Virus record (IMG/VR): IMGVR_UViG_2529292882_000013
Origin: a virus
Taxonomy: Duplodnaviria; Heunggongvirae; Uroviricota; Caudoviricetes
Reading direction: 5' to 3' (one strand)
Length of the DNA stretch: 19,021 nt
The translations under genes and the position numbers were made by a program. Each line of letters begins with the position of its first letter. Position 1 is the stretch's first letter. Shown here piece by piece: positions 10,339 through 10,573 of this stretch. The notes under the pieces are model-generated. The model had not been told where the DNA came from, did not search any database, and saw nothing but the letters and a program-made list of their open reading frames with translations.

Positions 10339-10454
10339 ACCCGGTGGTGATGTACCAGGCTGTTGTTACAGATTTTTAACTCCATGAAAACACTATGCAA
10401 ACGCAGCCATACCCGGGTTGTCCCCTTGCGTTGTGTTTCTCAAGTTAATAGAAT

Positions 10455-10516
10455 ACATCGATCGTTACTATCATATCGATCGTTACTATCATATCGATCG
10501 TTATAAACGATCGTTT
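10455..10516. repeat. Three tandem 18-bp direct repeats (a[c/t]atcgatcgttactatc) followed by the 12-bp perfect palindrome aaacgatcgttt
   Basis: Directly visible: 10455..10472, 10473..10490, 10491..10508 (third copy degenerate), palindrome 10504..10515; lies 60-120 bp upstream of the 10574 start codon. Confidence 0.8.
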
Positions 10517-10573
10517 GTAGTAAATGACCTCCTCCGTGGTTGTCATGAAAATGCGTCTTAGGAAGGTTAAATA

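What the first reader, a model, noticed from the sequence alone, without database searches (positions are those of the whole stretch)
10440..10573. Iteron-like 18-bp tandem repeats and a 12-bp palindrome upstream of the dynamin operon
Three head-to-tail copies of a[c/t]atcgatcgttactatc, each containing the palindromic cores atcgat and cgatcg, run into the perfect palindrome aaacgatcgttt 60-120 bp upstream of the start codon. This looks like a multi-site operator or iteron, yet no regulator gene is adjacent, since the upstream gene is the frameshifted GTPase. The array may control the operon through a factor encoded elsewhere, or be a site for a recombinase or replication protein. The minus-strand ORF 10445..10651 is an artefact of this repeat.
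Basis: seen in the sequence. Interest (0 to 1): 0.5.

Follow-up and report, generated by a model that had tools for sequence, protein, structure and literature searches.

The report
Ag43-type Dam/OxyR switch before dynamin operon
The "iteron-like" repeats are most likely the well-known DNA-methylation on/off switch of the E. coli antigen 43 gene, here joined directly to a dynamin-like/patatin operon and carrying a rare extra 18-bp copy, which would make that widespread operon switch on and off heritably.

Summary
The repeat is real: 2.6 copies of an 18-bp unit plus a 12-bp palindrome, giving four GATC (Dam) sites in 53 bp. It is not an iteron. From the GTPase stop to about 10525, the spacer is colinear with the agn43/cah regulatory region: TTGCGT-17-TAGAAT promoter, then three GATCs spaced 18/13 bp (agn43: 19/13). 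It holds the window's best OxyR-consensus match, 16/20, equal to the oxyS/oxyR site. From about 10525 to the ATG it is identical to the cah–dynamin spacer of O157:H7. The Ag43-type promoter and operator are therefore joined directly to a five-gene operon (dynamin/CrfC-like, YjcZ/RdcB-like, patatin, two unknowns). About 1,984 of 5,426 complete E. coli genomes carry this fusion in a 3-GATC form. Six have lost one 18-bp unit, and none has the window's extra unit, which is a private duplication. Inferred mechanism: OxyR and Dam compete for the operator, giving heritable ON/OFF expression. This was not tested experimentally. I found no paper describing it. In strain MP1 the same operon, with the same switch upstream, was the most strongly differential gene cluster between two strain lineages. 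Known kind, new member; moderate interest.

The parts
9467..10338 (+). Frameshifted GTPase-family pseudogene (yeeP/yfjP-like), the conserved island gene that precedes the cargo slot
   Evidence: RefSeq annotation of the 99.4%-identical HH194M locus; ORFs 9428-9703 and 9685-10338. The same gene precedes flu in K-12 and cah in O157.
10426..10454 (+). Putative sigma-70 promoter: -35 TTGCGT (10426-10431), 17-bp spacer, -10 TAGAAT (10449-10454). Homologous to the agn43/cah promoter.
   Evidence: Colinear alignment with O157 cah (TTGCGT-17-TAGAAT) and K-12 agn43 (TTGTCC-17-TAGAAT) in A2 and A4. TAATAGAAT is invariant in 9 diverse variants. The generic promoter scan did not call it because the -35 matches only 3/6.
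10460..10460 (+). Predicted transcription start (about +/-2 nt), at the G of GATC-1
   Evidence: Inferred by homology. The annotated 5' end of IsrC in K-12 (L002 1818) is the G of agn43 GATC-I, 6 nt after the -10 hexamer.
10457..10474 (+). 18-bp unit 1 (ATCGATCGTTACTATCAT) with GATC-1 (10460-10463). One of units 1 and 2 is the private extra copy.
   Evidence: It is absent as an extra copy in all 1,984 E. coli genomes with the locus and in JGI metagenome contigs.
10475..10492 (+). 18-bp unit 2 with GATC-2 (10478-10481)
10493..10516 (+). Partial unit 3 (ATCGATCGTTAT) with GATC-3 (10496-10499), running into the palindrome AAACGATCGTTT (10505-10516) with GATC-4 (10509-10512)
10475..10511 (.). Best OxyR tetramer-consensus match (16/20): ATCGATCGTTACTAT-CATATCG-ATCGTTATAAACGAT. 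It contains or touches GATC-2, -3 and -4 and corresponds to the single operator of the common 3-GATC form.
   Evidence: best of about 19,000 positions in the window; the best outside the array is 13; oxyS/oxyR 16, ahpC/dsbG 16, katG 14, agn43 14; 7 of 20,000 composition-matched shuffles reach 16.
10457..10493 (.). Second, weaker OxyR-consensus match (14/20) created by the duplication. It occupies the promoter-proximal position that the 16/20 site holds in the common form.
10523..10527 (+). Junction (CCT microhomology) between agn43/cah-upstream-like sequence on the left and the cah-dynamin spacer on the right
   Evidence: Alignments A2 and A3; O157 sequences.
10528..10573 (+). Proximal leader with the ribosome-binding site AGGAAGG (10560-10566). 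Identical to the 3' part of the O157:H7 cah-dynamin spacer.
10574..12970 (+). Dynamin-family GTPase, 798 aa, a full-length paralogue of CrfC/RdcA (YjdA)
   Evidence: Pfam Dynamin_N 2.8e-18. NCBIfam CrfC 1.2e-166 but below the equivalog cut-off.
12967..13872 (+). YjcZ-like (RdcB-family) protein, 301 aa
   Evidence: Pfam YjcZ 3.7e-70.
13869..14939 (+). Patatin-like phospholipase, 356 aa
   Evidence: Pfam Patatin 3e-24.
15075..16184 (+). Two hypothetical genes (15075-15758 and 15774-16184) that complete the five-gene unit
   Evidence: RefSeq annotation of HH194M. No Pfam, NCBIfam or PADLOC hit. The five-gene cluster is co-regulated in MP1 (PMC12922286).
16326..16364 (+). Strong intrinsic-terminator-like hairpin (13-bp stem, T run), the likely end of the operon

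Best explanation
The array is the operator of an antigen-43-type epigenetic phase-variation switch. A sigma-70 promoter (TTGCGT-17-TAGAAT) is followed directly by an OxyR tetramer site that carries clustered GATC sites. The proposed mechanism is inferred by homology with agn43. After replication, OxyR and Dam compete for the operator. If OxyR binds first, it blocks transcription and shields the GATCs from methylation (OFF, heritable). If Dam methylates first, OxyR cannot bind and the operon is transcribed (ON, heritable). In this lineage the switch sits directly on a five-gene operon (dynamin/CrfC-like, YjcZ/RdcB-like, patatin-like phospholipase, two unknowns). The Ag43/Cah gene that lies between switch and operon in O157:H7 is absent, with a junction at a CCT microhomology. 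The most parsimonious origin is a deletion, but the direction of the event is not proven. The window additionally carries a private 18-bp tandem duplication, probably from slippage between the two ATCGATCGTTA repeats. It adds a fourth GATC, moves the best OxyR site 18 bp downstream, and leaves a weaker 14/20 site next to the promoter. Its likely effect is a change in switching bias or in the tightness of OFF, not a new function. Shown here: homology, anatomy, consensus match, and population distribution. Inferred: OxyR binding, methylation sensitivity, and bistable expression.
For: 1) Position. The cargo slot after the yeeP-like GTPase is the slot of flu in K-12 CP4-44 and of cah in O157.
2) Colinear homology from the GTPase stop through the promoter and three GATCs to agn43 and, more closely, to cah (A1, A2, A4). 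GATC spacing is 18/13 versus 19/13. GATC-II and GATC-III fall at the same positions of the OxyR register.
3) OxyR consensus. The 16/20 match is the best in the window. It equals the oxyS/oxyR and ahpC-region sites and exceeds agn43's 14/20. It was reached in 7 of 20,000 shuffles.
4) Phylogenetic footprint. In 9 diverged variants, including two Citrobacter species, the invariant blocks are the -10 hexamer and the GATC-containing blocks, while the flanks diverge.
5) The right-hand 46 bp are identical to the O157 cah-dynamin spacer, which has no promoter-like or terminator-like site.
6) The fusion is present in 1,984 of 5,426 E. coli genomes, at 95% identity or more in 1,978 of them.
7) The agn43 mechanism is described in PMC4872104, PMC3764049, PMC2909390 and PMC13337833.
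8) Independent expression data. In E. coli MP1 the five-gene cluster SID94_19700-19720 was the most strongly up-regulated cluster between two strain lineages in both media, and did not track the phage's lytic/lysogenic decision (PMC12922286). I confirmed that MP1 has the same 3-GATC switch directly upstream.
Against: There is no binding, methylation or reporter data for this locus. The -35 is weak (3/6), and the generic promoter scan did not call this promoter. Counting consensus matches is crude: the O157 cah operator scores only 13/20. The switch is not under absolute constraint. One sampled genome has lost GATC-3 (DEF2), and six genomes have lost a unit, which removes the OxyR match. In the window, the duplication displaces the best site by 18 bp, about 1.7 helical turns, so repression could be weakened. 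The MP1 result rests on two replicates and could reflect real prophage-dependent regulation. The paralogous operon in MP1 was also reported as up-regulated, although the authors flagged it for multi-mapping.
Confidence: 0.8

Rival explanations
1. Inactive relic. The promoter and operator were left behind when the Ag43/Cah gene was lost. The GATC cluster persists only because the event is recent, and the operon is expressed constitutively or from another signal, without phase variation.
For: Most E. coli copies are 95-100% identical, so conservation within E. coli has little power. GATC-3 is lost in DEF2. A unit is lost in six genomes and gained in the window, showing tolerance to change.
Against: Only 46 bp lie between the junction and the ATG, with no other promoter-like site. 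The core blocks are invariant between E. coli dyn, cah and agn43 and the Citrobacter variants, while the flanks diverge. Of 1,984 genomes, 1,978 keep the intact 3-GATC form. The MP1 cluster shows a strong lineage-dependent ON/OFF-like difference.
Confidence: 0.1
2. Operator for a different DNA-binding protein (a Dam-sensitive regulator such as Fur, Lrp or HdfR, or an island-encoded factor), or a SeqA-binding GATC cluster, rather than OxyR.
For: GATC clusters are also used by Fur (sci1), Lrp (pap) and HdfR (std), as cited in PMC3145626, PMC6735912 and PMC2909390. The palindromic repeated units would suit many dimeric regulators.
Against: The Fur-box match is 12/19, which is ordinary: 26 sites in the window score 12 and 6 score 13. 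The pap-type architecture (two GATCs 102 bp apart with a PapI-like gene) is absent. The site matches the OxyR consensus as well as bona fide OxyR sites do, and it is homologous to the agn43 operator, where OxyR is the established factor. Reviews state that at agn43 OxyR, not SeqA, is central to sequestration.
Confidence: 0.05
3. Iteron array or recombinase site: repeated binding sites for a replication initiator or site-specific recombinase.
For: Direct 18-bp repeats with internal palindromes.
Against: There are only 2.6 copies here and 1.6 in 99.7% of genomes with the locus. No rep or recombinase gene is adjacent. The locus is chromosomal, with 2,204 of 2,205 places on chromosomes. The motif occurs only at this promoter. 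A full alternative explanation comes from homology to agn43.
Confidence: 0.02

Closest known systems
agn43 (flu) regulatory region of E. coli K-12: Dam/OxyR phase-variation switch
   Same: Same island slot after yeeP. Same -10 (TAATAGAAT) with a 17-bp spacer. Three GATCs immediately downstream of the -10, spaced 19/13 versus 18/13. The OxyR-consensus site overlaps the GATCs. GATC-II and GATC-III sit at identical register positions.
   Different: It drives a dynamin/RdcB-like/patatin operon rather than the Ag43 autotransporter. The leader is about 96-114 nt, not about 220 nt, and the IsrC region is absent. The OxyR consensus match is better (16 versus 14 of 20). About 30% of positions differ. 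The window has a fourth GATC from an 18-bp duplication.
cah (calcium-binding Ag43 homologue) locus of E. coli O157:H7
   Same: This is the closest relative of the left part: identical -35 TTGCGT, -10, GATC blocks and the sequence after GATC-3. The dynamin operon lies 110 bp downstream of cah, and the last 46 bp are identical to the window.
   Different: In O157, cah lies between the switch and the dynamin operon (635 genomes have this order). In the window and in 1,984 genomes, cah and its leader are absent.
gtr (P22 and Salmonella) and opvAB OxyR/Dam switches
   Same: OxyR plus Dam, four GATCs, more than two OxyR half-sites, and alternative overlapping OxyR sites (PMC2909390, PMC4856963). The duplicated window allele superficially resembles this, with four GATCs and two overlapping sites.
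   Different: In gtr and opvAB the GATCs are arranged in two pairs, the sites lie upstream of or over the promoter, and OxyR also activates. Here the sites lie downstream of the -10 with 18/18/13 spacing, and the four-GATC state is a private allele.
Plasmid or phage iterons
   Same: Direct repeats of about 18 bp.
   Different: The copy number is too low and is not conserved. There is no initiator gene, no AT-rich region or DnaA-box context, and the location is chromosomal.

Membership tests
agn43-type Dam/OxyR phase-variation switch | Three or more GATC sites clustered within about 50 bp inside the regulator's binding site | tested here: met
   GATCs at 10460, 10478, 10496 and 10509. Three GATCs spaced 18/13 in the common form, against 19/13 in agn43.
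agn43-type Dam/OxyR phase-variation switch | Match to the OxyR tetramer consensus ATAGnTnnnAnCTAT-N7-ATAGnTnnnAnCTAT overlapping the GATCs | tested here: met
   16/20 at 10475-10511, the best in the window. Known sites score 14-16. Reached in 7 of 20,000 shuffles.
agn43-type Dam/OxyR phase-variation switch | Sequence homology and colinearity with the agn43/cah regulatory region, in the same genomic slot | tested here: met
   Alignments A1, A2 and A4. The slot after the yeeP-like GTPase is shared.
agn43-type Dam/OxyR phase-variation switch | Operator placed at or just downstream of the promoter and transcription start, so that bound OxyR represses | tested here: inconclusive
   The conserved -10 TAGAAT ends 2 bp before unit 1. 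The start is inferred from the K-12 IsrC 5' end. No start has been mapped for this locus. In the window the best site lies 18 bp further downstream than in the common form.
agn43-type Dam/OxyR phase-variation switch | OxyR binds unmethylated DNA but not Dam-methylated DNA, and the GATCs are unmethylated in OFF cells | not testable with these tools
   Needs EMSA or footprinting and a single-molecule methylome.
agn43-type Dam/OxyR phase-variation switch | Heritable, reversible ON/OFF expression that is locked OFF in dam mutants and locked ON in oxyR mutants | not testable with these tools
   Indirect support only. The MP1 five-gene cluster differs strongly between two lineages regardless of medium (PMC12922286), and the same switch lies upstream.
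Iterons (replication-origin repeats) | Several (usually four or more) conserved direct repeats next to a gene for their initiator protein, on a replicon | tested here: not met
   2.6 copies here and 1.6 in 1,978 genomes. No rep gene. Chromosomal location.
pap-type Lrp/Dam switch | Two GATC sites about 102 bp apart within Lrp sites, with a PapI/PapB-like regulator | tested here: not met
   Spacing is 18/18/13, and no PapI/PapB gene is in the locus. Feature as described in PMC2909390.
gtr/opvAB-type OxyR/Dam switch | Four GATCs in two pairs within alternative OxyR half-sites upstream of or over the promoter, with OxyR also acting as activator | tested here: not met
   The GATCs are not paired and all lie downstream of the -10. 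The four-GATC state is found only in this window.

The most novel reading that the evidence does not exclude
The Ag43 Dam/OxyR switch may be a portable expression module of the CP4-44/CP4-57-type islands, placing whatever cargo sits after the GTPase gene under epigenetic bet-hedging. Examples are Ag43/Cah, the dynamin-RdcB-like-patatin operon in about 37% of E. coli genomes, and small secreted proteins in Citrobacter. The dynamin/patatin operon is a suspected membrane-defence or c-di-GMP-linked system. Under this reading it would be phase-variable, which would explain 'regulation' seen between clonal lineages such as MP1 lysogen versus non-lysogen. Expansion and contraction of the 18-bp unit (0, 1 or 2 full units) would add a genetic layer that retunes or breaks the epigenetic switch.
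Probability: 0.35. Interest if true: 0.65.

Novelty: new member of a known kind. Interest (0 to 1): 0.5.

Why it matters
If the switch works as at agn43, a five-gene dynamin/RdcB-like/patatin operon is expressed in only a heritable subpopulation of cells. This operon is carried by more than a third of sequenced E. coli, and its regulation was stated to be undescribed in 2026. Three consequences follow.

- Population-averaged or single-colony transcriptomics of this operon would need to be interpreted differently. The strongest 'lysogen-induced' cluster in strain MP1 may simply be a phase-state difference between stocks.
- There is a direct handle for studying the operon's unknown function, using locked-ON oxyR and locked-OFF dam backgrounds.
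- It shows that the classic agn43 switch is reused for cargo other than an adhesin.

Natural alleles with 2, 3 and 4 GATCs offer a ready-made series for testing how operator architecture sets switching rates.

Tried and rejected
- Iteron or recombinase reading: rejected on copy number, context and distribution.
- Fur box: 12/19, which is ordinary for this window.
- pap-type Lrp/Dam architecture: absent.
- Generic sigma-70 scan: it did not call the homologous promoter because of the weak -35. It called two low-grade sites inside the repeats that I do not trust.
- Terminator-like hairpin at 10495-10513: it is the palindromic operator itself. The leader RNA folds are not significantly more stable than shuffles (z -2.05 and -1.77), so I make no riboregulation claim.
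- PADLOC: only a weak LeoBC match (8.6e-5) and weak phospholipase-effector matches, so the operon cannot be filed as a known defence system.
- Search for the 4-GATC allele elsewhere: none found in 5,426 E. coli genomes or in JGI metagenome contigs. The hits from the degenerate operator scan of GTDB representative genomes were all 3-GATC forms.
- Literature searches linking this operon or 'dynamin' with GATC, Dam, OxyR or phase variation found nothing relevant.
- Wallecha 2002 and Kaminska 2010 (agn43 promoter and operator dissection) are not held in the library. The MP1 supplements are not held either.
- I tried to locate the second MP1 dynamin operon (PAI-aspV) by coordinate guess and missed. 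I did not pursue it.

Full report
OBSERVATION. The described sequence is present. Tandem Repeats Finder reports an array at 10457-10503 with period 18, 2.6 copies and 100% matches. Two units are complete and identical (ATCGATCGTTACTATCAT at 10457-10474 and 10475-10492). The third is partial and runs into the perfect palindrome AAACGATCGTTT at 10505-10516. The 18-mer with up to 3 mismatches occurs nowhere else in the window, against 0.02 expected. This is by far the tightest GATC cluster in a window where GATC is otherwise under-represented: 34 sites seen, 74 expected, and the next tightest run of four spans 195 bp.

CONTEXT. Window 8231-19021 is 99.4% identical to a chromosomal island of E. 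coli HH194M that lies next to yeeA/sbmC. The gene order there is: hypothetical, frameshifted GTPase-family gene (yeeP-like), the array, dynamin-family protein, YjcZ-like/RdcB-family protein, patatin-like phospholipase, two hypotheticals, DUF932, antirestriction, yeeS, yeeT, cbeA. This is the architecture of the K-12 CP4-44 element, and the dynamin cassette sits exactly where flu (agn43) sits in K-12. Pfam and NCBIfam agree on the proteins. The 798-aa protein has a Dynamin_N domain and is a full-length CrfC/RdcA paralogue, the 301-aa protein is YjcZ family, and the 356-aa protein is patatin. A strong terminator-like hairpin follows the fifth gene at 16326-16355.

HOMOLOGY TO THE Ag43 SWITCH. 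The K-12 agn43 regulatory region and, more closely, the O157:H7 cah upstream region align colinearly with the window from the GTPase stop codon through the promoter and operator (A1, A2). Shared features are:
- a -35 hexamer (TTGCGT in the window and cah, TTGTCC in agn43);
- a 17-bp spacer;
- an identical extended -10 (TAATAGAAT);
- three GATC sites directly downstream, spaced 19/13 in agn43 and 18/13 in the dynamin locus.

In K-12 the annotated 5' end of IsrC is the G of GATC-I, 6 nt after the -10. By homology, transcription in the window should start near 10460. In an alignment of nine diverged variants (five dynamin alleles, cah, agn43 and two Citrobacter species), the invariant blocks are the -10 and the three GATC-containing blocks, while the -35 spacer and downstream flanks diverge (A4).

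OxyR SITE. I scored every 37-mer against the OxyR consensus quoted in PMC2909390, in the palindromic tetramer form ATAGnTnnnAnCTAT-N7-ATAGnTnnnAnCTAT. The best match in the whole window is 16/20 at 10475-10511. A 14/20 match lies at 10457-10493, and nothing outside the array exceeds 13. For calibration, the oxyS/oxyR site scores 16, a site in the dsbG-ahpC spacer 16, katG 14 and agn43 itself 14. Only 7 of 20,000 composition-matched shuffles of the spacer reach 16. GATC-II and GATC-III occupy the same register positions in agn43 and in the dynamin operator. A Fur-box comparison gave an ordinary score of 12/19.

POPULATION DATA. I queried 5,426 complete E. coli genomes with synthetic versions carrying 0, 1, 2 (the window) or 3 full units.
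- 1,984 genomes have the locus.
- 1,978 match the one-unit, 3-GATC form at 95% identity or more over 203 nt.
- Six carry the reciprocal 18-bp contraction with 2 GATCs. There the OxyR match collapses to 12-13/20.
- None has the window's two-unit form or a three-unit form.

The two-unit form is also absent from JGI metagenome contigs. The 'three-copy array' is therefore a private 18-bp tandem duplication of a widespread element, plausibly produced by slippage between the two ATCGATCGTTA repeats.

ORIGIN. In O157:H7 the order is GTPase, switch, cah, a 110-bp spacer, then dynamin and RdcB. Window 10528-10573 is identical to the last 46 bp of that spacer, and window 10320-10527 is homologous to the cah upstream region. 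The two parts meet at a CCT microhomology near 10523-10527 (A2, A3). The O157 spacer has no promoter-like or terminator-like site, so the dynamin operon may already be co-transcribed with cah there. 635 genomes have the cah-dynamin order, against 1,984 with the direct fusion. Loss of cah and its leader is the simplest history, but the direction of the event is not proven.

BEYOND E. COLI. A degenerate three-GATC operator pattern, scanned over one genome per species, found E. coli agn43 and two Citrobacter species. In Citrobacter the same promoter and operator follow a yeeP-like GTPase and precede small secreted proteins and DUF932. This suggests that the switch is a module of this island family with exchangeable cargo. 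An operator-like element in C. werkmanii and Rahnella precedes a 191-aa membrane protein. I did not follow this up.

LITERATURE. At agn43, OxyR binds the unmethylated operator and represses. Dam methylation of the three GATCs blocks OxyR. Competition after replication gives heritable ON and OFF states, with switching at about 1e-2 to 1e-3 per generation. dam mutants are locked OFF and oxyR mutants are locked ON (PMC4872104, PMC3764049, PMC2909390, PMC13337833). Six full-text searches found no paper linking the dynamin operon to Dam or OxyR. A 2026 transcriptome study of E. coli MP1 states that regulation of such dynamins 'has not been described'. [quoted passage not shown] I fetched MP1 and found the same 3-GATC switch directly upstream of that cluster. 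A heritable phase-state difference between the two strain stocks is therefore a simple alternative explanation. Two caveats apply: the study had two replicates, and a paralogous operon was also reported up-regulated, although the authors flagged it for multi-mapping.

MECHANISM AND THE DUPLICATION. In the common allele, the 16/20 OxyR site begins 2 bp after the -10 and covers the predicted start, as expected for a repressor. In the window, the duplication moves that site 18 bp downstream and puts a 14/20 site in the promoter-proximal position. Four GATCs must now be protected or methylated. I infer that the switch still works but with altered bias or leakier repression. This is a prediction, not a result.

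VERDICT. The 'operator for a factor encoded elsewhere' reading is right, and the iteron and recombinase readings are not. The element belongs, by homology and anatomy, to the agn43-type Dam/OxyR switch family. The functional criteria (methylation-sensitive OxyR binding and dam- and oxyR-dependent bistability) could not be tested here. It is a new member of a known kind, in an apparently unreported gene context. Interest is moderate, because it makes the regulation of a widespread, uncharacterised operon directly testable.

Noticed in passing
window 1-8230: The left part of the window is the left end of a Mu-like prophage: MuB 3988-4926 (-), MuA transposase 4964-6952 (-), a ner-like ORF 6960-7181 (-) and a repressor-like ORF 7367-7891 (+). 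The terminal sequence ...CTTCAAGTGAATCAATACA ends at about 8230, immediately before the GTG start (8232) of the 383-aa hypothetical gene. Homology to HH194M starts exactly at 8231. By coincidence, the Mu mom gene is another Dam/OxyR-controlled gene (PMC2909390), but it lies at the other end of Mu, outside the window.
   Followed up: partly
L025 (E. coli AF39), L026 (50EVA) and four other genomes: Six E. coli genomes carry the reciprocal 18-bp contraction of the operator (2 GATCs). This removes the OxyR-consensus match (12-13/20), so these alleles are predicted to be locked ON. AF39 also has a -10 change (TAGAGT).
   Followed up: partly
L006 (E. coli DEF2), aligned to window 10509-10512: GATC-3 is mutated to AATC (CAATCG) in this strain, giving a natural two-GATC point variant of the switch.
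   Followed up: no
L010 4862-6075 (Citrobacter amalonaticus), L013 (C. braakii): The same promoter and three-GATC operator follow a yeeP-like GTPase but precede two small ORFs (154 and 157 aa) whose N-termini look like signal peptides, and then DUF932. The slot and switch are the same, but the cargo differs.
   Followed up: partly
L012 2479-2600 (Citrobacter werkmanii), L018 (Rahnella perminowiae): A three-GATC element with ATAG/CTAT-like flanks (…ATCGATCAAAAATTGAATTATCGATCGTTTTTATCGATCG…) lies upstream of a 191-aa predicted membrane protein. This may be another OxyR/Dam-type switch in a different context.
   Followed up: no
L003 1-2544 and L007 (E. coli O157:H7 TR01): In O157:H7 the dynamin/RdcB operon lies 110 bp downstream of cah, with no promoter-like or terminator-like site between them. 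It may be co-transcribed with cah and share its phase variation. 635 genomes have this arrangement.
   Followed up: partly
window 10520-10566: In the predicted leader RNA, the CCUCCUCC tract created at the junction pairs with the AGGAAGG ribosome-binding site in the minimum-free-energy fold. The fold z-scores (-2.05 and -1.77) are not significant, so this is only a hint of translational occlusion.
   Followed up: partly
L001 about 11310 (HH194M), aligned to window 10560-10566: HH194M has a 1-nt deletion in the ribosome-binding site (AGGAAGG becomes AGAAGG) relative to the window and the other strains.
   Followed up: no
window 8232-9383, 15075-15758, 15774-16184: Three conserved island ORFs (383 aa upstream of the GTPase, and the fourth and fifth genes of the operon) have no Pfam, NCBIfam or PADLOC match.
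   Followed up: no
L002 1818-2012 (K-12): The annotated small RNA IsrC starts at the G of agn43 GATC-I and covers the agn43 leader, so it looks like the 5' part of the agn43 transcript. That leader region is absent from the dynamin fusion.
   Followed up: no
whole window: GATC is under-represented about two-fold in the window (34 observed, 74 expected at 1/256). This fits published reports of low GATC density in mobile elements (PMC4659465) and makes the four-site cluster stand out more.
   Followed up: no
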